From a virus (taxonomy: Duplodnaviria > Caudoviricetes): DNA of 42,367 nucleotides. A program made the position numbers and the translations under genes. Below the pieces are notes generated by a model. It saw only the letters and a program-made list of their open reading frames with translations. It did not search any database and had not been told where the DNA came from. The stretch spans positions 1 through 42,367 of IMG/VR virus record IMGVR_UViG_3300016263_001470. One strand, 5' to 3'. Positions 1,307 to 33,911 of the stretch are shown here, piece after piece. The first letter of the stretch is position 1. Each line of letters opens with the position of its first letter.

Positions 1307-1896
1307 GCTGATTCCTCCGTTATGACTTTGTCAAAACCGGGTTCCTCGGCATGCCAGGTTTCTGTCTGCACCCGCAACCAGCTGGGTTTGCCTTCCGCTT
1401 TGACAAAACTCGATTCTTTCCAGAGAACATTGTTGTTGGGAACACAGACATACCGGCCGTTGGTAAGCGCCATAAAGTTATGGGATTTGGTTTGACTTGG
1501 CTCCAGGGAGTAGGAGTCTTCATAGGGCTCCGCCGTAAACACGTAATGACCCGCAACCCAATGTTGCCGCTTGGCAATCCAAACCTCGACATCGAGCTCT
1601 CGGAGGTAATCATACTGGATGGGTTGAAAGTTGTATCCGAAACAATCCCAGCGCTGGGCATCGCCAATCCCCCATTCAATATCAAAACCCATACGGTCGT
1701 GGCAAAGGGCGTGGAGTGGGAGCCCGCGGTAAACGGCTCCCCCCTTGAGCATAACAGTACAACCCCAGGCGCGGTGCGGAACGGAAAGGAGTCCAAACCA
1801 AACGGCTTCTTCCCACCCCCTTACTTCATTCCCGCTAACGATTGATCGGTCAACCCAGCAATATTGATGCTGGGGCAAGTTTGCTGCGTGTGTCAT
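1303..1896 (-). CDS. Hypothetical phage protein (Trp-rich)
   Basis: 197 aa, coupled to the next gene, promoter-like motif upstream. Confidence 0.7.
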   Translation of the reverse strand: MTHAANLPQHQYCWVDRSIVSGNEVRGWEEAVWFGLLSVPHRAWGCTVMLKGGAVYRGLPLHALCHDRMGFDIEWGIGDAQRWDCFGYNFQPIQYDYLRELDVEVWIAKRQHWVAGHYVFTAEPYEDSYSLEPSQTKSHNFMALTNGRYVCVPNNNVLWKESSFVKAEGKPSWLRVQTETWHAEEPGFDKVITEESA

Positions 1897-1906
1897 GCGT
1901 GCAAAG

Positions 1907-1949
1907 AGTGTCCCAATTCAATTGACCGTTGGCAAGGAAAATTTATACT
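1907..1949. promoter_or_regulatory. Divergent sigma70-type promoters
   Basis: + strand TTGACC(1922)-16-TATACT(1944); - strand TTGCCA(1935)-17-GACACT(1912). Confidence 0.6.
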
Positions 1950-1956
1950 CGGTTGC

Positions 1957-2709
1957 TTGAAGATCCTGGTTTACACGGTATCGGATTTCAGCCCCGGGGC
2001 TGACTCCTGCATCAACATGCTTTTCGAGAATATGCGGTTGGATTCGGATACGGATTTCAAAATCCTGGGGACAAGGCATCCGGGCGGGAAATTCAAACAC
2101 GAGGTCATCATTGCCCCGTTACCCAAAGGTTATCCTGGTCACCTCAAGTCAAGCGAGCTGGTGCCGGCGGGATACGACTACTACGTTTACCTGGACTCCG
2201 ATGTTCTTTGTTTCGGCAACCCGGGGGACCTGATTGATCCGGCCAAGGACTTTTCAATCGTCCATGATGAGCGACCAATGCTTGACCGCTGGTTCGCCTA
2301 TGAGAAAGCCCCGCGTGAGGACAAGGTCAAAATGCAGTCCCTTATGGGCATCAATGCCGGAACCTTCTGTTTCAGGGACCTTGGGTTCCTGGAAACCATA
2401 AGAAACCTGTTATACCCCCTTGGGGCTAATGTTTCGTCGCTTCAAGGGTGGATGATGTTGGAGCAGTCGTCATTCAACTATGCCCTGGCCAAGGCCGTCG
2501 ACTTTGACCTGGCTAGGTGTCACGACCTAACCCCCGTCACCCAGCTTCAAGCCCAAGTGCGTCCGTATGTACAAAGTAAATACCTTTACCACTTTACCGG
2601 GGCCCCCAATACCATGGCTGGGAAGGCTTATGTCATGGGCGAATTCCTCAAAAGGACTCCAGGGTGGGGGTATACCCCCACCCCACAAGTGGCTACCCCC
2701 ACCCCCTAA
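1957..2709 (+). CDS. Glycosyltransferase, GT8-like
   Basis: YVYLDSDVL (DxD), GINAGTF, EQSSFN and YHFTG motifs. Start moved to TTG 1957, 7 nt after the -10 box; the track start at 1864 overlaps the divergent gene. Confidence 0.7.
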   Translation: MKILVYTVSDFSPGADSCINMLFENMRLDSDTDFKILGTRHPGGKFKHEVIIAPLPKGYPGHLKSSELVPAGYDYYVYLDSDVLCFGNPGDLIDPAKDFSIVHDERPMLDRWFAYEKAPREDKVKMQSLMGINAGTFCFRDLGFLETIRNLLYPLGANVSSLQGWMMLEQSSFNYALAKAVDFDLARCHDLTPVTQLQAQVRPYVQSKYLYHFTGAPNTMAGKAYVMGEFLKRTPGWGYTPTPQVATPTP

Positions 2710-2966: not shown

Positions 2967-3953
2967 TCAACGACTGGTAATCTCGACAGTTTCGCGTTTA
3001 AAGTGGCCGTTACGGATAAGGTAGGCCGTCACCTTGGTTCCAGGGGAAAGACGTCGTACAGCCCTTATTAGGTCCCTTTGCGTGGCTATCTGGGTGTCTT
3101 CCAGGCTGACAATGATGTCCCCGACCATAAGGCCACAGCTTGTGACCACCTTGGTCACTTCCAATGCTTCGTCGGTAAGGGCCATCCCATGGCTCATCTT
3201 GACGGTCTTGCCAACCACCCCAAGGTAGCCCTTCTGGGCTACGGATCTGGAATCAATGAATTCTCGAATGTCGGCTGCTGGAATCGTATACGTAAACTCA
3301 GGAGCGTTATCCTTGACTGGTAGCTGGCCTACAGGAGCCGTATCCATGTTTCCAAGGACCAGCGCGATGACTTCACCCTTGCCATTGACCAGCGGGCCTC
3401 CGGAGTTGCCCTTGCGGGTCAAGGCATCGGTAAGGAGGTATCGCTCGCCCCGCTTGGTTCCGCTGGCCGACACGATGCCCTTGGAGATCGTCCTGGTAAA
3501 TCCCAAGGGATTGCCGATGGCGTATACTTCGGTGCCCGGCTGGACTGGAAACTCAAGGTTTAGGACCGCGGGGGTAAGTTTGATTTCCGCGTCCAGTTCG
3601 TTTTTGACCTTGAGTAAAGCAATGTCGGCGACCTTGTCGGCAAACAAAACCTCGGCTTCATAAACCACCGTGTCGTCGCCGTCCCCGGTGTGGATGTTGA
3701 TCTGGTCGGCTCCCTCGATGACGTGGGCCGCGGTGATGACACCTTCCTCGATGACCACGCCCGTTCCGCGCAGGCTTTGTTGTTTGTCGACGAAGTAGGC
3801 GTTGATCCGGACGACCGACTGTAGAATCTGGTTACCGGCTAAAAGAGGCGATACCAGACCTTGCGTAACCAGCAGTACGCCGAGAAAAAGGCCGCGGTAA
3901 GGAAGACGCAGATGGCGGCGCCCAAAAGCGCGGCTAGCGAGAAGACCAGGCAT
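2967..3953 (-). CDS. HtrA/DegP-like trypsin serine protease with C-terminal PDZ
   Basis: Triad motifs ITAAHVI, DIALLKV, GNSGGPL; AIGNPLG; PDZ-like GYLGV...GDII; hydrophobic N-terminus (start uncertain). Confidence 0.9.
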   Translation of the reverse strand: MPGLLASRAFGRRHLRLPYRGLFLGVLLVTQGLVSPLLAGNQILQSVVRINAYFVDKQQSLRGTGVVIEEGVITAAHVIEGADQINIHTGDGDDTVVYEAEVLFADKVADIALLKVKNELDAEIKLTPAVLNLEFPVQPGTEVYAIGNPLGFTRTISKGIVSASGTKRGERYLLTDALTRKGNSGGPLVNGKGEVIALVLGNMDTAPVGQLPVKDNAPEFTYTIPAADIREFIDSRSVAQKGYLGVVGKTVKMSHGMALTDEALEVTKVVTSCGLMVGDIIVSLEDTQIATQRDLIRAVRRLSPGTKVTAYLIRNGHFKRETVEITSR

Positions 3954-4178
3954 TCAGCGAGCCCCGTGGGCATCAACAAACTCCTTCAACGCCTTTGTGA
4001 AGGCGTATGCGATCAAAGCCTCCCGGTCGTGCTGGATTTCCATCCAGCCGGCCTGGGCCAGCTTGTGAGCAACGTCGTCGTCCATCTCGACTCGTAGTTC
4101 GACATGGGGGACGTTCTTTTCGGACAGAATGCGTATCTGCCCAAGGGTTTGTTCCTTGTTTACGTTTCTTTTCCCCAT
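3954..4178 (-). CDS. Hypothetical protein
   Basis: Fills the gap in the operon; start uncertain (4178 chosen, track gives 4235). Confidence 0.55.
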   Translation of the reverse strand: MGKRNVNKEQTLGQIRILSEKNVPHVELRVEMDDDVAHKLAQAGWMEIQHDREALIAYAFTKALKEFVDAHGAR

Positions 4179-4387
4179 TTTCCGATGGGGCATTGTTCGT
4201 GTGGTAGCCATTGTTTTCCTTTGCCGCACCCACATTTAAGGCACTTGCCGTAACCGAGTCTAGCATTTTCTTCCCAAAATTCACAACCCCGGCAAATCTC
4301 CATCCGCCTGAGATAAGTCTCGCCCGATACCTTCGGGAACCCGGAGCGGGCCCACTGATGCATGGAGTAGGAGAATTTTCGGATCAT
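4160..4387 (-). CDS. Small Cys-rich protein (CxxC...CxxCGC...CPxxKW)
   Basis: 75 aa from ATG 4387 (ATGA overlap with the oxidase stop); 6 Cys. Confidence 0.75.
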   Translation of the reverse strand: MIRKFSYSMHQWARSGFPKVSGETYLRRMEICRGCEFWEENARLGYGKCLKCGCGKGKQWLPHEQCPIGKWGKET

Positions 4388-4830
4388 GGCTTGAAGATTG
4401 GTTTTCCCAGGTCCTTGTTGACCATGTTGTGGGCGTCGATCGCCCACTTTTCATAGGCTTGCCGGGAGGATAAATCAGGCGGTAATTTTTTGACCACTTC
4501 ACGCCAATGAGAGGAACATTTACCACACGGGATCCAACGGTGGAAAATCTTAAGCCAACGAAGTTCTGTTTTTGCATCCTTGATTTTGTTATGCGTTCTG
4601 TCATGCAATATTTTCCACAGTCTTGGACCCCATTGTGCCGGGTCTTTTCTAAATTTTGCCACTGGATTTGGATCCGAGTATTTTTCAACAAGTTTTCTGG
4701 CCACGTCCTCCCCCATCACAATGTATTTTCCCTGTATTCTTCCGCTGGACATAACCTCTTCAACGTATCCTTCCGGGCGGAAAAACGAGTTTTCCTTTAC
4801 GGCCCGTATTAAAAAACGCACCTCGTTCAC
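4384..4830 (-). CDS. Erv1/Alr family FAD-linked sulfhydryl oxidase
   Basis: WGPRLWKILH...IPCGKCSSHW...WAIDAHNMVNKDLGKP gives the full Erv signature; GTG 4830 overlaps the upstream stop. Confidence 0.88.
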   Translation of the reverse strand: MNEVRFLIRAVKENSFFRPEGYVEEVMSSGRIQGKYIVMGEDVARKLVEKYSDPNPVAKFRKDPAQWGPRLWKILHDRTHNKIKDAKTELRWLKIFHRWIPCGKCSSHWREVVKKLPPDLSSRQAYEKWAIDAHNMVNKDLGKPIFKP

Positions 4831-5225
4831 GGAGCTTCTATCAGGCAACAAGTAAAAGCACAGCTAACGCCGCCTCCCCATGATCCGGCTTCACATTTCA
4901 TTGTGGTTCCTTCGCCCACGTAAGCGGTGAAGGAAAAATTATGGGCCCCGTAGCACGGGCCGGTTCCAGGCTGGTTTGCCGGGGAGAAAAAACTTCCTCC
5001 CTGCCAGGTGATGGTGGCCTGGTCATCCACCGCGCCATTACATTCATAAAGCCCTGTTTTCGGGGCTTCTTCGGATACAGCAGTCAAAAAATCAACACAT
5101 GGTCCACCTTGATCGTCTCCGGGACCGCTTCCAAAAATATCTCCGGAGAAACAATTGCAATCTTCACAGGCTGCGGTGACTGCATCACAATCACATTCAC
5201 AATCTGATTTGATAAAAGCCATCAT
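4827..5225 (-). CDS. Cys-rich protein (13 Cys in 132 aa)
   Basis: DCECDC...CEDCNC...TCC; overlaps both neighbouring genes by 4 nt. Confidence 0.75.
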   Translation of the reverse strand: MMAFIKSDCECDCDAVTAACEDCNCFSGDIFGSGPGDDQGGPCVDFLTAVSEEAPKTGLYECNGAVDDQATITWQGGSFFSPANQPGTGPCYGAHNFSFTAYVGEGTTMKCEAGSWGGGVSCAFTCCLIEAP

Positions 5226-7342
5226 GGATTTACTTCCTCAATAGGAATTTTCCAAGTCACTTTACCATGCAGGGTCACCCGTTCAATACTCTTGGTCGTC
5301 ATTATTTTCGCCAGCCGCTGCCCCATCTTTTCAGGCGTGGCCGCGTAGTGGCGCGTCAGTTTCTCAAGACCAGGATCGTTGAGCATCTGGGTCAGAAGCT
5401 GGGTGGCCGAACCCTTCCAGACAATTTCCTTGGGATTGGACATCTTGAAGCTGATGAGGAACTCATCGAGCAGTTCGGAAAATGCATGGTTGGGGTGCGT
5501 TGTCCTGGTGTCCTCCAGGATATCGGGGTGGTGGTAGCACCTGACTTCAAACCGGCTGGAGCTTTTGAGCTCGTCGGAAATCTCCATGTCGACAAGCCAT
5601 CTGGCAAAAGCCGGAAGCTCGCCGTCCAGGATGCGCTGAAGCTCCTTGGCTGCGGGGAACTTCATCCCGCGGGCCGATGCCTTGAAAAGCATCAGCTTGT
5701 CCAGAATGCTCGCGTCGGTGTAGGGAACCGCCCGCATCGAATCCGGGTCATCGTTGAGTGTGACAAACACCCGGCCGCTCCACTCGATGGTGGACGGATT
5801 TTTCCACATGGCCCGGTAGCGGTGCCGCCGGTTGGCGACAAACTTCTTGACCGTGTTGGAGAAAAGCAGGTGCTTCTCGTGGCTGGTGGACGCAATCGTG
5901 TCGTCGACGTTAAGCACACCGACCTCGAACATCTCGGAGTTAAACTCACTTTCACCGGAGATGTGTCCAGAGGCATCGCAACCTCCGCCTAGCAGGCGGG
6001 AGACAACCTGGGTGCCGAGCAAAGTCTTGCCCACGCCCACCGGACCGGCGATGAAGATCGCCTGGCCCTGCGATTGCTTGCCTGCCCTGGCCGATGTGTA
6101 GAAGTGGTGAAGCCACGCCAGGAAATACTGGAGCGAGTCGGAAGGGTCAAAGAATCCCTCCAAAAACTGCGCCATCCACGGGAAGCCGTCGCCCCACTTG
6201 GAGCATGGTTCCGAGCGTGGCTCTAGCACCCTGACCCGCGAGACGTTAAGGATGTTCTTTCCACCAAGGTGGACGATCTCTTCCTTGTTGAAAAGAATCG
6301 GCCCGGCCTCGTCGACCCGGCGTGTTTCGCGGATGCGGAACATTGTCTGGTCGACCTCGCACTGGCCACCACGTTGCATCGGGGCAAGTGAAAGCCCATA
6401 GATGCTGGCGATGTCTTTCTTGGCAGTGTCAGATTCCGCATCCCGCCACACGCCTGTGCCATCACGACGCCAGTATTTCTTTCCGTCGTAGTAATAGTTG
6501 GACAGCGGTGCGCCCAACCGGTCCTCCTCAAATTCCTTTACCCAACCGGCTCCCAGAATCTCCGACCAAGTGTAAAAACTTTTTTCCTGCGAAAAACTTA
6601 CAATACCGGTGGGCGTAACCACGCAGGAGGTTGGGTTGTCTGATGTGGGAGACCAAAACGCATTGGTTCTGGAGTTGATTTCAAGGCGACCGAGGAGACG
6701 GCCGGGAAACAATTCCTCGACCCTGGCCCTGACCCGATCCATCGGAATTTCCACCGGACCCTCGCCACGATACTTGGAGGCCGAGTCAATCGTTGTGGCA
6801 AGCCAGCTGAAGATCGTTTCCGACCGGATGGGCTTGTCACTGACTTTTGTGACCGGCTCGTACCAGGCATAATACTGCTCCGGACGCAAATAGTTTTCGT
6901 CCAGGCCGGGGAAGATTTTCTTGATGCCGAGTTCCTTGGCCATGCGCTTGATAAACGGCTCAAGTAGTCCGACCGGAATCTGGGCGGGCTCCTCGAACAT
7001 CCAGATCACCCTTGCTCCTCCGCTGGGTGTGCGGTGAGCGTAGTTGGGCTTGTATCCTTTTACCTTGTTGGCCAAGCTCTCGATAAATTCGCTGTCGGTG
7101 ATCTCCGCATCATAGTCGACCACAAACGCATGCATCTTGGCCGGCGGATTGTCCTTGGTTACCCGCATAGATGGCGCACGGCCCTCAAATCCGCTGACGA
7201 ACATCCCGTCAGTCTGCGAGCTTGTTGACCACTTCTTGGCATCCTCAGGCTTGAGGCTTGGTGGTTGGTTGACCTTGCCGCTCCAGGGTGTGCAGGGACT
7301 GGCAACCGACGACGATAAATTTGGGATACGGTAGAGCGTCAT
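5222..7342 (-). CDS. Primase-helicase (AEP-like N-terminus, SF3/DUF5906-like NTPase)
   Basis: VVDYD and RTPSGGAR primase-like motifs; Walker A GPVGVGKT, FNSE, LNVDD. Confidence 0.8.
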   Translation of the reverse strand: MTLYRIPNLSSSVASPCTPWSGKVNQPPSLKPEDAKKWSTSSQTDGMFVSGFEGRAPSMRVTKDNPPAKMHAFVVDYDAEITDSEFIESLANKVKGYKPNYAHRTPSGGARVIWMFEEPAQIPVGLLEPFIKRMAKELGIKKIFPGLDENYLRPEQYYAWYEPVTKVSDKPIRSETIFSWLATTIDSASKYRGEGPVEIPMDRVRARVEELFPGRLLGRLEINSRTNAFWSPTSDNPTSCVVTPTGIVSFSQEKSFYTWSEILGAGWVKEFEEDRLGAPLSNYYYDGKKYWRRDGTGVWRDAESDTAKKDIASIYGLSLAPMQRGGQCEVDQTMFRIRETRRVDEAGPILFNKEEIVHLGGKNILNVSRVRVLEPRSEPCSKWGDGFPWMAQFLEGFFDPSDSLQYFLAWLHHFYTSARAGKQSQGQAIFIAGPVGVGKTLLGTQVVSRLLGGGCDASGHISGESEFNSEMFEVGVLNVDDTIASTSHEKHLLFSNTVKKFVANRRHRYRAMWKNPSTIEWSGRVFVTLNDDPDSMRAVPYTDASILDKLMLFKASARGMKFPAAKELQRILDGELPAFARWLVDMEISDELKSSSRFEVRCYHHPDILEDTRTTHPNHAFSELLDEFLISFKMSNPKEIVWKGSATQLLTQMLNDPGLEKLTRHYAATPEKMGQRLAKIMTTKSIERVTLHGKVTWKIPIEEVNP

Positions 7343-9129
7343 TTCTTGTACCTCTCCGCGTCGACCGCTTCAGCCCCGATTGGACAGCCTTGCAACCATT
7401 CGGGGGATTCACTCATGAGCCTTTCAATTTCACCAGCCGGAACGTTCTTGTCAACTTCACAAACCGCCTCGTCGTGAATATGCATGACGACCGGAATCCC
7501 GGCTTTTTCAAGACGCAATATCGACGCGCCCATAACGTCCCGCGCTACAGCCTGCACCAGGTTTTCGCAGAGTTTCCCGCCATAGAACGGTATCTGCGGA
7601 CCTCCTCGCTCGACGCACGCCGTCCAGGACGGCTTACGCATTTTGCCATCCTTGTCGTATTTCTGCTTCTCCGGCCACTGCGACATGATGTTGCGGTAGG
7701 TGAGGACACGACTACTGGGAAGACCAACCTCAAGCTGTTTGTCAGCCTTGGCGTTGTGAAAGTCGTTTTCCAGTTGCCTCCATAGCTGGAGAATCCCCGG
7801 ATTGCGTCCGCGAAAATCGTTGACGATCTCCTGGGCTTTTACGTCGGTCATATCAATTCCGTATTGCATCTTGGCGATCAGGGCAAACTTCTTGGCTCCC
7901 GCACCGTAACCAAGACCGAGCACCATGGCTTTGACCAGTTGGTACAGCGGAGCGTCTGTTTTCTTTAATGTCCCTTTAGGGCCATTCCATAAATTCATGT
8001 TTTTTGCCGCCGCTTCGTAGATGCCATACCCGTTCCTGATCGCCTCAAGGAGTCCTTCGTTGTCACACAGCCATGCAAGGACTCGTGGCTCAATCTGGGC
8101 AAGGTCGCAGATAATAAACTTCTTACCTGGCCGGGGTACGATGCAACCCCGTAAATCAACGCCGAACATTTCGTTTCGGGGAAGGTTCTGTACATTGAAC
8201 TTGGAGTCACCCGACCACCGTCCGGTGTGGGCGCCCATATATTTAAGCCCGTAACCCATTGAACCGTCAGGTCTTACGCGGGAGCGCATGACCTTCATTT
8301 TGGCAAGCAAAGAATTGGCCTTGCGCCAGTCCCGCATGATCGCAACAAACGGAACCTTGTCCCCGTACTGGGCCTCCCACAACGCGCACTCCTCCGAATT
8401 CTCCGCCATCGAGGTCGGCCACGGGATTCCAGCCTTCGCGCATTCACGGCGAAACGCCTTGGTCGAAAGCACAACGCCGTCGGTTTCGTCGATCCAGGGT
8501 AACGCGTTTTCGCATTCCCAGGTTTTGCGTTCCAGGGCTTTGATGCCTTTTTCCACCGCGTCTGTGTCCACATGCACTCCGCGCCAGCCCATGCTGATCG
8601 TGTGCCTGGAGAGCTCCTGCTCCATCGGCAAAAGATGCAAACCAAACTGCTCGTCGATCTTGTAGCAAGCCTCGGCGTCGTTCTTTGCGTACTCCAAAAC
8701 CTCCCTGCCAAACTCGGTGTTCTCAACATCGATCCACCGCTTGGAGTGCATCTTGTCCCGCGGGTCCTTGTCGATCTGCCTGTTTAGAAGTTCACGGGAG
8801 GCCCCTGCAAGATTGCGGGGCGCTCCCACGGCGACCGAAAGATTGGCGGTGCAGTCCCAAGCAACAGGCTTGGCTAAGAACTCACCTGCCTCGCGCAATC
8901 TCTCGATCACCGCGCCGTCAAAACTGTAGTTGTGGGCAATCCACCGGTGCCCGTTAATCTTGTCCCACGGAGCCTTTTTGGGGTCGCCGACGTAACTTAC
9001 ATCCGGCCCGTGGATTGCCACCATGTAAATGTCCGCCTTGTCGTGGCGCAGATAATGCCACTGGCCGAGCGTCGTGATGGAGATTTCCTTGTCGTAGTAA
9101 GTTTCAAAATCAATCGCGTAGGTATTCAT
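7339..9129 (-). CDS. polA: DNA polymerase family A with 3'-5' exonuclease
   Basis: AIDFET, AHNYSFD, HTGRWS, DLAQIEPR, KAMVLGLGYG, HIHDE. Confidence 0.95.
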   Translation of the reverse strand: MNTYAIDFETYYDKEISITTLGQWHYLRHDKADIYMVAIHGPDVSYVGDPKKAPWDKINGHRWIAHNYSFDGAVIERLREAGEFLAKPVAWDCTANLSVAVGAPRNLAGASRELLNRQIDKDPRDKMHSKRWIDVENTEFGREVLEYAKNDAEACYKIDEQFGLHLLPMEQELSRHTISMGWRGVHVDTDAVEKGIKALERKTWECENALPWIDETDGVVLSTKAFRRECAKAGIPWPTSMAENSEECALWEAQYGDKVPFVAIMRDWRKANSLLAKMKVMRSRVRPDGSMGYGLKYMGAHTGRWSGDSKFNVQNLPRNEMFGVDLRGCIVPRPGKKFIICDLAQIEPRVLAWLCDNEGLLEAIRNGYGIYEAAAKNMNLWNGPKGTLKKTDAPLYQLVKAMVLGLGYGAGAKKFALIAKMQYGIDMTDVKAQEIVNDFRGRNPGILQLWRQLENDFHNAKADKQLEVGLPSSRVLTYRNIMSQWPEKQKYDKDGKMRKPSWTACVERGGPQIPFYGGKLCENLVQAVARDVMGASILRLEKAGIPVVMHIHDEAVCEVDKNVPAGEIERLMSESPEWLQGCPIGAEAVDAERYKK

Positions 9130-33191: not shown

Positions 33192-33911
33192 ATGGCCGAC
33201 CGAATTGAGTATCAAGGAGTGCCTTTGCCTTCCGGTCTTCCCGGTTTTGGCGGTGGGACGGTCGAAGTTCTTACTTTACCTGGCTTTAACACAGTTGTGG
33301 CTCCTTTAAAATTTGGTCCTGTGGTAGATGCAATAAACGCAGCTACACCGGACCCAACCCCTCCTGCCGGAAGTAATCCGGACGACCCAACAAACGAAGT
33401 TGTTGATCCAGGACCCGCACCGACTAACCCTGGAGGGCCGTTTCAGGATGAAAGATTTTCAAATCTTTGTTCTACTTATGATTGCACCCCTGATCCGGAT
33501 TTAAATCAACCTTTGGTTTTCGCCCAAAAAGTTGCCGACCCCATTTGTGTTGCTTGTAAAAAACAAGGAGACAAGTATTATCCAAATTTTTTTACAGCTT
33601 CCAGTACCTCCGTTGGCGTTTATTATGTTGGTGCAGATCATATACAGGGTAAAGCAAGCGGGTCCGAATGGAATATTCGAGTCGAAGGATTTGAAACAGA
33701 TAAAGACAGTGGTTATTTTAAAATAGGACAAAATGAATTTAGTAGCGGAGCAAAATTAGACAAAGATAAAGTGATTATCTCTGGAACAGAATATAGAAAG
33801 GGAGCAAGAATATATGATATTGATACCGCCAGAACTTATGAGCCAAAAACCTTGGAAGTTTGTGTTGGTGGGGAAACCAAAACCTGGTTTGTACTGGCTT
33901 ACGAGCAATAA
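33192..33911 (+). CDS. Hypothetical tail protein (5 Cys)
   Basis: 239 aa, Pro-rich N-half. Confidence 0.6.
   Translation: MADRIEYQGVPLPSGLPGFGGGTVEVLTLPGFNTVVAPLKFGPVVDAINAATPDPTPPAGSNPDDPTNEVVDPGPAPTNPGGPFQDERFSNLCSTYDCTPDPDLNQPLVFAQKVADPICVACKKQGDKYYPNFFTASSTSVGVYYVGADHIQGKASGSEWNIRVEGFETDKDSGYFKIGQNEFSSGAKLDKDKVIISGTEYRKGARIYDIDTARTYEPKTLEVCVGGETKTWFVLAYEQ

What the first reader, a model, noticed from the sequence alone, without database searches (positions are those of the whole stretch)
4160..5225. Phage-encoded disulfide-formation module: Erv1/Alr oxidase between two Cys-rich genes
Seen: 4384-4830 has the whole Erv signature (WG...W..LH, PCxxC..H, W...HN.VN..LGK). It is joined by 4-nt start/stop overlaps to a 13-Cys protein upstream and a 6-Cys protein downstream, and the block is coupled to the primase. 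Established: Erv/Alr oxidases are typical of eukaryotes and large DNA viruses (vaccinia E10R, ASFV pB119L), where they make disulfides in virion proteins in a reducing cytoplasm with small Cys partners; they are not a standard tailed-phage gene. Inference: this phage has its own cytoplasmic oxidative-folding relay, with the neighbours as shuttles or substrates.
Basis: partly seen in the sequence, partly recalled or inferred. Interest (0 to 1): 0.9.

Follow-up and report, generated by a model that had tools for sequence, protein, structure and literature searches.

The report
Phage Erv oxidase in swappable tip cassette
An uncultured tailed phage carries a relative of the disulfide-making flavin enzymes of eukaryotes and giant viruses, inserted into a swappable gene pair (a variable cysteine-rich protein plus a small six-cysteine helper) that its close relatives keep without the enzyme, so the enzyme is likely an optional aid for cross-linking a predicted host-binding tail tip.

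Summary
4384-4830 (-) encodes a two-cysteine Erv/ALR protein (Pfam E 2e-15; the ten significant fold matches are all Erv/ALR), joined by 4-nt overlaps to a 13-Cys and a 6-Cys gene in a tailed phage. An independent study's contig carries the same trio.

Relatives change the reading. The constant unit is a variable cysteine-rich protein plus the DUF6171-like six-cysteine gene; Erv is an optional insert. It is absent from all 18 near-complete genomes among 50 tested, including one with 96% primase identity. The 13-Cys protein is a predicted beta-sandwich that looks like a tail-tip substrate, not a shuttle. The primase coupling is incidental: in two close relatives the cassette lies among tail genes.

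Erv and the helper are still linked. They occur as fusions, share two accessory domains, and replace each other at one syntenic slot. Best model (0.55): Erv oxidises the tip's cysteines, with the helper as relay or thiol chaperone. No activity was measured and no complex was modelled.

The scan already noted phage Ervs (28 notes, at least 27 genomes) and DUF6171 tip cassettes; a word search for their link found no note. A 2026 paper says no such machinery is described in phages.

The parts
4384..4830 (-). Erv/ALR-family sulfhydryl oxidase, 148 aa: N-terminal 55-aa RPxGY domain plus Erv core with a single C102-x-x-C105 pair, no shuttle cysteines
   Evidence: Pfam PF04777 E 2e-15; PDB sequence hits; model and Foldseek; RPxGY domain profile
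4827..5225 (-). 13-Cys protein: N-terminal cluster of six Cys (9, 11, 13, 20, 23, 25) plus a predicted all-beta domain with seven Cys; likely tail-tip protein and substrate
   Evidence: C-terminal 95 aa are 47% identical to the end of an 835-aa, 63-Cys protein that precedes Erv in L001; also before Erv in L003; model pLDDT 78.5, all beta; best VIA Z 6.6, a common jelly-roll arrangement only; slot is variable in relatives
4160..4387 (-). Six-cysteine DUF6171-like helper (CxxC, CxxCGC, CP...W); the constant gene of the cassette
   Evidence: phrog_13558 E 3e-7; 368 viral stretches; all six Cys invariant in 44 sequences; follows Cys-rich genes; fused to Erv in P0008, P0009, P0034
33192..33911 (+). 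239-aa tail-region protein; candidate stalk or anchor for the 13-Cys tip (inferred)
   Evidence: Occupies the position that directly precedes the tip cassette in L017 and L018; shares a short C-terminal C-x-x-G motif with genes directly before the Cys-rich gene in L017, L018, L027-L029 and L032; pairwise similarity to the L017 gene is weak (E 0.005 over 15 aa)
5222..7342 (-). Primase-helicase-like gene marking the upstream border of the cassette; context, not part of the redox module
   Evidence: DUF5906 E 3e-5; DNA similarity to L008, L015 and L009 stops at about 5236 and, in L008 and L015, resumes at 4307-4379

Best explanation
The phage encodes an Erv/ALR-fold protein with an intact CxxC site that likely acts as an FAD-dependent thiol oxidase on the neighbouring 13-cysteine protein, a predicted tail-tip protein, as an optional insert in a widespread cassette whose constant member is a six-cysteine DUF6171-like helper. 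Shown: family, fold, gene order, variable slot, fusions, shared accessory domains, slot exchange, and absence of Erv from close relatives. Inferred chain: newly made tip protein (and perhaps the C-terminal Cys of the stalk candidate at 33192-33911) gives electrons to the helper or directly to Erv C102-C105, then to FAD, then to O2. The helper would supply in trans the second cysteine pair that this two-Cys Erv lacks (its conserved C-G-C is the candidate), or would hold and sort thiols. The RPxGY domain, found on both Erv and helper proteins, would dock either module on the tip. Phages without Erv would rely on the helper plus air oxidation or a host oxidant.
For: Erv identity; C102 and C105 invariant in 22 aligned homologs. 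The 13-Cys domain lies directly before Erv in 3 of 3 loci found, in phages of 51% and 35% GC. In five of six phage-type Erv loci picked by eye from 80, the upstream gene has 3.9-6.0% Cys. The gene before the helper has at least 4% Cys in 25 of 46 non-redundant loci, against 14 of 557 other ORFs. The helper domain is fused C-terminally to Erv in 6 of 154 proteins at E<1e-4. Two accessory domains are shared: RPxGY in 20 of 155 Erv-search proteins and 8 of 90 helper ORFs; a second four-Cys module in 8 of 155 and 19 of 90. Slot exchange: L088 has tape measure, Cys-rich gene, Erv, 245-aa gene, lysin-like gene, whereas L064 has homologs of the tape measure, 245-aa and lysin-like genes (39-51%) with the helper in Erv's place. 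The cassette lies among tail genes in G011 (primase and putative capsid protein 95% identical to the window) and G012. The slot holds a lectin-like domain in L010 (E 8e-10, under cut-off). Precedent: disulfide-attached fibres in Pam3 (PMC9942802).
Against: Erv is absent from the nearest relatives: PF04777 in 1 of 50 records and 0 of 18 at least 90% complete, and no hit with a sensitive own profile in six records read whole. Tips with 41 and 71 Cys exist in records without Erv, so Erv is not needed for Cys-rich tips. Only 1 of 80 helper loci has Erv within 8 kb, and none of the six phage-type Erv loci has a separate helper within 6 kb. The helper's CxxC...CxxC spacing also fits a zinc ribbon (Rpb12, E 0.41) or a HiPIP-like cluster (E 0.011), in which case C52 of the CGC may be a metal ligand. 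The 13-Cys protein has no family hit, and its virion location is inferred from synteny only. No activity, expression or redox state was measured.
Confidence: 0.55

Rival explanations
1. Metal-loading cassette: the cysteines of the tip bind Zn or an Fe-S cluster, the six-cysteine protein is a metal or cluster chaperone, and Erv oxidises only a few remaining thiols or merely travels with this tip.
For: The helper has six invariant Cys with zinc-ribbon or HiPIP-like spacing (HIPIP in 4 of 44 members, best E 8e-4). The tip's N-terminal CxCxC...CxxCxC cluster suits metal binding. Most cassettes lack Erv.
Against: It does not explain why Erv repeatedly follows Cys-rich tail genes, fuses to the helper, shares two accessory domains with it and takes its slot.
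Confidence: 0.2
2. Oxidation at or after lysis: tip disulfides normally form in air or through host periplasmic enzymes once the cell opens, the helper shields thiols until then, and Erv only speeds the last step rather than working against a reducing cytoplasm.
For: Erv is dispensable across the clade. PMC13576161 names host enzymes and spontaneous oxidation as the likely routes in phages.
Against: The cassette here is coupled to a replication gene, which suggests expression well before lysis (inference). Related viral Ervs work inside the cytoplasm (PMC1318495 passages).
Confidence: 0.15
3. Host-directed redox enzyme: Erv oxidises host thiols or makes H2O2 during replication, and its neighbours are incidental.
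For: The gene lies in the replication arm beside accessory genes and is lacking in relatives.
Against: The same Erv and 13-Cys pair occurs in an unrelated phage. Phage-type Erv loci lie behind tail genes. Fusions with the helper exist.
Confidence: 0.07

Closest known systems
Compact viral Erv oxidases: ASFV pB119L (PDB 3gwl) and vaccinia E10R
   Same: Erv fold and a single FAD-proximal CxxC without a shuttle pair (3gwl: phmmer E 2e-7; Foldseek E 1.1e-3). PMC3509050 describes many viral Ervs as compact and shuttle-less.
   Different: Encoded by a tailed phage. Has an extra 55-aa RPxGY domain with no PDB sequence hit. Optional in its lineage, whereas Erv is described as highly conserved in giant viruses.
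Cellular Erv1/ALR/Erv2 (PDB 2hj3, 1oqc, 1jr8)
   Same: Best sequence and fold scores (E 1.2e-9; ranks 1-10).
   Different: No flanking shuttle disulfide (CxC, CxxC or Cx4C in cellular enzymes); this protein has only two Cys.
Vaccinia E10R-A2.5L-G4L cytoplasmic disulfide pathway
   Same: Erv plus a small Cys partner acting on virion proteins is the logic inferred here (PMC1318495 passages).
   Different: No thioredoxin-fold carrier was found among the ORFs scanned. The small partner is DUF6171-like and showed no hit to pox families. The partner, not Erv, is the conserved element.
Cyanophage Pam3 disulfide-attached tail fibres (PMC9942802)
   Same: Phage fibres fixed by disulfides to cysteine-rich regions; TNF-like beta domain in the fibre.
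   Different: No oxidase appears in the passages I saw. Homology to Pam3 fibre proteins was not tested directly; the 13-Cys protein has no Pfam or PHROG hit.
Pfam DUF6171 / phrog_13558
   Same: The 6-Cys protein matches phrog_13558 (E 3e-7); 32 of 44 family members match DUF6171 at E<=0.05.
   Different: The window protein is under the Pfam cut-off (15.1 against 27 bits). No paper in the library names DUF6171.

Membership tests
Erv/ALR sulfhydryl oxidases | Family profile above curated cut-off | tested here: met
   PF04777 57.4 bits against 27.6
Erv/ALR sulfhydryl oxidases | Helical FAD-binding Erv fold | tested here: met
   Model pLDDT 83.9; 10 of 10 Foldseek hits at E<=0.001 are Erv/ALR, rmsd 2.2-2.7 A for most
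Erv/ALR sulfhydryl oxidases | Active-site CxxC | tested here: met
   C102 and C105 align with PCxxC of ALR, Erv1 and Erv2; invariant in 22 homologs
Erv/ALR sulfhydryl oxidases | Conserved W..LH and W....HN.VN residues around the flavin | tested here: met
   Aligned residue for residue with ALR and Erv1; that they contact FAD is recalled, not computed
Erv/ALR sulfhydryl oxidases | FAD binding and O2-dependent thiol oxidation | not testable with these tools
   Needs purified protein
Cellular-type Erv (shuttle-bearing) | Second cysteine pair on a flanking arm | tested here: not met
   Only 2 Cys in 148 aa; fits the compact viral type instead
Vaccinia-type three-protein relay | Thioredoxin-fold carrier like G4L | tested here: inconclusive
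   None among the 30 window ORFs (only glutaredoxin E 0.041 on 3957-4163) or the 4; the record is about 61% complete
Vaccinia-type three-protein relay | Physical or covalent complex of Erv with its small partner | not tested
DUF6171 (6-Cys protein) | Pfam gathering score | tested here: inconclusive
   15.1 against 27 bits for the window protein; 32 of 44 relatives match, best E 1.5e-7
HiPIP (6-Cys protein) | Four-Cys 4Fe-4S motif over the whole domain | tested here: inconclusive
   Only profile positions 29-50 match 2hip, E 0.011; Pfam HIPIP in 4 of 44 members
HiPIP (6-Cys protein) | Bound 4Fe-4S cluster | not testable with these tools
   Needs spectroscopy and metal analysis
Phage receptor-binding tip (13-Cys protein) | Beta-sandwich fold and a variable slot among tail genes | tested here: inconclusive
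   All-beta model, best Z 6.6; slot variable, and in the tail arm in G011 and G012; presence in virions untested

The most novel reading that the evidence does not exclude
Many freshwater phages run their own oxidative folding of tail tips with two interchangeable catalysts on shared docking domains. One is the Erv flavoenzyme. The other is the far commoner DUF6171-like six-cysteine protein, a new flavin-free thiol oxidoreductase (HiPIP-like Fe-S or Zn core plus a C-G-C dithiol) that works alone in most phages and relays to Erv where both occur, as here.
Probability: 0.3. Interest if true: 0.88.

Novelty: new variant of a known kind. Interest (0 to 1): 0.7.

Why it matters
[quoted passage not shown] This locus gives a small testable set: enzyme, candidate substrate and candidate relay in 1.1 kb, plus natural controls (relatives with 93-96% identical primase-like genes that keep the helper and lack Erv). 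It also gives the abundant unstudied DUF6171-like family a concrete job to test. A compact bacterial-context Erv could be useful for cytoplasmic disulfide formation in E. coli. The Erv observation itself is recurrent in this scan, so the added value is the Erv-helper link and Erv's dispensability.

Tried and rejected
Searches that found little. Single-sequence scans for Erv and for the 13-Cys protein in viral contigs found nothing. A search for longer forms of the 13-Cys domain scored none of 30 candidates. No Erv relative was found in prokaryote genomes with the narrow patterns used. In GenBank phages the only Erv match was a weak Mollivirus-type record, 1 of 50,697; there was no match for the 6-Cys protein, putative capsid protein or primase-like protein. 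NCBIfam gave nothing for the trio. L002 and L004 were weak partial matches; L002 showed no Erv ORF and L004 was not examined.

Structure. The fold of the 13-Cys domain has no clear match: no Foldseek hit at E<=0.001, best VIA Z 6.6, Atlas rows under the naming bar. Complex prediction of Erv with the helper was not available, so binding is open.

Origin. A tree of 230 Erv cores nests the window protein with L001, L088 and environmental proteins (24 sequences, support 0.87, no giant-virus MAG). The wider clade includes megabase-size contigs and a eukaryote-like sequence, so the origin is unresolved.

Expression. Promoter-like sites were at chance level (7 found, 7.0 expected). No RNA holder was listed.

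Rejected readings: assembly chimera; giant-virus origin of the window; obligatory three-gene relay; functional coupling to the primase.

Caveats. The motif count of helper-like domains beside Erv cores (23 of 154; shuffles mean 3.1, max 7) used a motif I wrote after seeing the sequences, so that count and the 91% profile match are partly circular. The loci are related, so its p value overstates independence, and the ORF calling was crude.

Full report
Observation. The middle ORF starts at GTG 4830 and gives 148 aa with two cysteines. It scores 57.4 bits against Pfam Evr1_Alr (cut-off 27.6). All 15 PDB sequence hits are Erv/ALR proteins. The AlphaFold model (pLDDT 83.9) has 10 Foldseek hits at E<=0.001, all Erv/ALR. 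Residues 1-55 form an extra domain (RPxGY) with no PDB sequence hit. The window is a tailed phage record, about 61% complete. A contig of a second study spans 4117-5900 with 121 differences. The host is unknown. Relatives of the 6-Cys gene occur in 10 loci of prokaryote genome assemblies, 9 of them Verrucomicrobiota by their titles (that Opitutales belong there is recalled), which is a hint only.

The 13-Cys gene. Its last 95 residues are 47% identical to the C-terminus of an 835-aa, 63-Cys protein directly before an Erv in L001, a phage of 35% GC. The same domain precedes an Erv in L003. So the domain lies before Erv in 3 of 3 loci found, but my searches for it were shallow. Its model is all beta (pLDDT 78.5). 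The best structural matches are C1q/TNF-like and carbohydrate-binding jelly rolls at Z up to 6.6, which shows only a common arrangement. In seven close relatives (L008-L013, L015; primase-like gene 78-96% identical) the same slot holds other proteins of 149-247 aa with 3-13 Cys and no tblastn match to the 13-Cys protein. One has a lectin-like domain. In G011 (primase-like gene and putative capsid protein 95% identical) and G012 the cassette lies among tail genes, with 71-Cys and 41-Cys proteins. There it follows the gene in the position of window 33192-33911, which shares a short C-terminal C-x-x-G motif with such upstream genes (pairwise E only 0.005). I infer that the 13-Cys protein is a swappable tail tip and hence a substrate, and that its place behind the primase-like gene is one of two positions used in this clade.

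The 6-Cys gene. A viral scan found 368 stretches. All six cysteines, R28, G47, P67 and W71 are invariant in 44 aligned sequences. The gene before it has at least 4% Cys in 25 of 46 non-redundant loci (median 4.4%) against 14 of 557 other ORFs (median 0.9%) (related loci, crude ORF calls). Its profile's best PDB hits are HiPIP (E 0.011, 22 positions only) and a zinc ribbon (E 0.41). Pfam gives DUF6171 for 32 of 44 members and HIPIP for 4. The chemistry is therefore open. It carries a C-G-C, and CxC is one of the shuttle spacings of cellular Ervs (PMC3509050 passages).

Results against an obligatory relay. Only 1 of the 80 helper loci has an Erv within 8 kb, and that is the L001 contig. I searched 50 of those 80 records whole: PF04777 rings in 1 of 50 and in 0 of 18 at least 90% complete. 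A sensitive profile of my own found no Erv and no 13-Cys domain in six records read in full (four 100% complete), each with one helper. L001's relatives L030, L033 and L038 also go from the Cys-rich gene to the helper without Erv. Erv is an optional insert. DNA similarity to the nearest relatives breaks at about 5236 and resumes at 4307-4379, so tip and Erv likely arrived together.

Results that tie Erv to the helper. Among 154 proteins with an Erv core from the full-library search, the helper domain is fused C-terminally in 6 at E<1e-4, strongly in P0008, P0009 and P0034. A shorter helper-like cysteine motif flanks 23 of 154 (partly circular). Profiles built only from Erv-search proteins find the RPxGY domain on 8 of 90 helper ORFs and a second four-Cys module on 19 of 90; these occur on 20 and 8 of the 155 Erv-search proteins. 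P0028 has five RPxGY copies and a helper domain but no Erv core. Of 80 viral Erv loci, most looked like giant-virus DNA (23 labelled as such). I picked six phage-type loci by eye (L088, L089, L112, L122, L135, L164; L122 and L135 nearly identical). In five the upstream gene has 3.9-6.0% Cys; the sixth has an unclear start. A tape measure gene is confirmed by PHROGs for L088 only. L088 and L064 share tape measure, a small upstream gene, the 245-aa downstream gene and a lysin-like gene (39-51%), and differ in that L088 has Erv where L064 has the helper.

Mechanism. I commit at 0.55 to this: Erv oxidises the tip's cysteines, passing electrons through C102-C105 and FAD to O2 (family chemistry, PMC3509050 and PMC12561257 passages). 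The helper acts as relay or thiol chaperone and the RPxGY domain as a docking module. Everything after family, fold and genetics is inferred. Rivals are metal loading (0.2), oxidation at lysis (0.15) and a host-directed role (0.07).

Known systems and literature. The closest kinds are the compact viral Ervs (pB119L, E10R) and the vaccinia relay (PMC1318495 passages). Pam3 shows disulfide-attached fibres (PMC9942802 passages). PMC10598087 (passages) reports no bacterial Erv homologs. [quoted passage not shown] PMC6842933 (passages) added nothing on phages, and only a stub of PMC13419713 was held. My searches (listings only, apart from the papers named) found no paper on a phage Erv or on DUF6171. 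The library lacks most subscription journals, and I read no supplements, where annotation tables could list such genes. This scan has 28 earlier notes on phage Ervs in at least 27 genomes and notes on DUF6171-like tip cassettes. A word search for the two together found none. These notes are leads, not support.

Verdict. A real Erv/ALR member in a tailed phage: new variant of a known kind, interest 0.70. The boldest reading not excluded is that the DUF6171-like protein is itself a flavin-free thiol oxidoreductase interchangeable with Erv (0.3; interest 0.88).

Noticed in passing
P0021, P0077, P0078, P0083, P0088, P0091, P0098, P0101, P0103, P0104, P0111, P0132, P0138: Thirteen of 84 Erv-search proteins scanned are fusions of Erv with glycosyltransferase-like or pyruvyl-transferase domains (GT9, GT1, GT25, mannosyltransferase), suggesting joint oxidation and glycosylation of virion proteins.
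   Followed up: no
P0028 (350 aa): Five tandem copies of the RPxGY domain followed by the six-cysteine domain, with no Erv core.
   Followed up: partly
P0011, P0013: Tandem Erv domains in which the second copy lacks the CxxC pair.
   Followed up: no
window 2967-3953 (-): HtrA/DegP-like trypsin plus PDZ protease with a hydrophobic N-terminal stretch, two genes downstream of the cassette and kept in six of the seven close relatives' loci; possibly quality control or host-envelope processing.
   Followed up: no
L017:6348-7841 and L018:6876-7547: Tip-slot proteins with 71 of 497 and 41 of 223 residues cysteine, in records without any detectable Erv.
   Followed up: partly
L009-L013, about 6800-7400: A 134-141 aa protein sits between the primase-like gene and the tip slot in five relatives but not in the window; the L009 copy matches the 3D domain (E 6e-7).
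   Followed up: no
L200:4776-5216 and L201:4830-5216: Helper proteins with ten cysteines: an N-terminal four-Cys module that is also found on Erv proteins, then the six-Cys domain.
   Followed up: partly
window 1864-2709 (+): Lone plus-strand ORF in the minus-strand arm, with a DxD-like stretch suggestive of a glycosyltransferase (recalled motif; no Pfam, PHROG or NCBIfam hit), near a GT2-like gene at 435-1109.
   Followed up: no
L001:10437-11330: DUF6734-like gene (E 8e-11) lies between Erv and the helper-bearing gene in L001.
   Followed up: no
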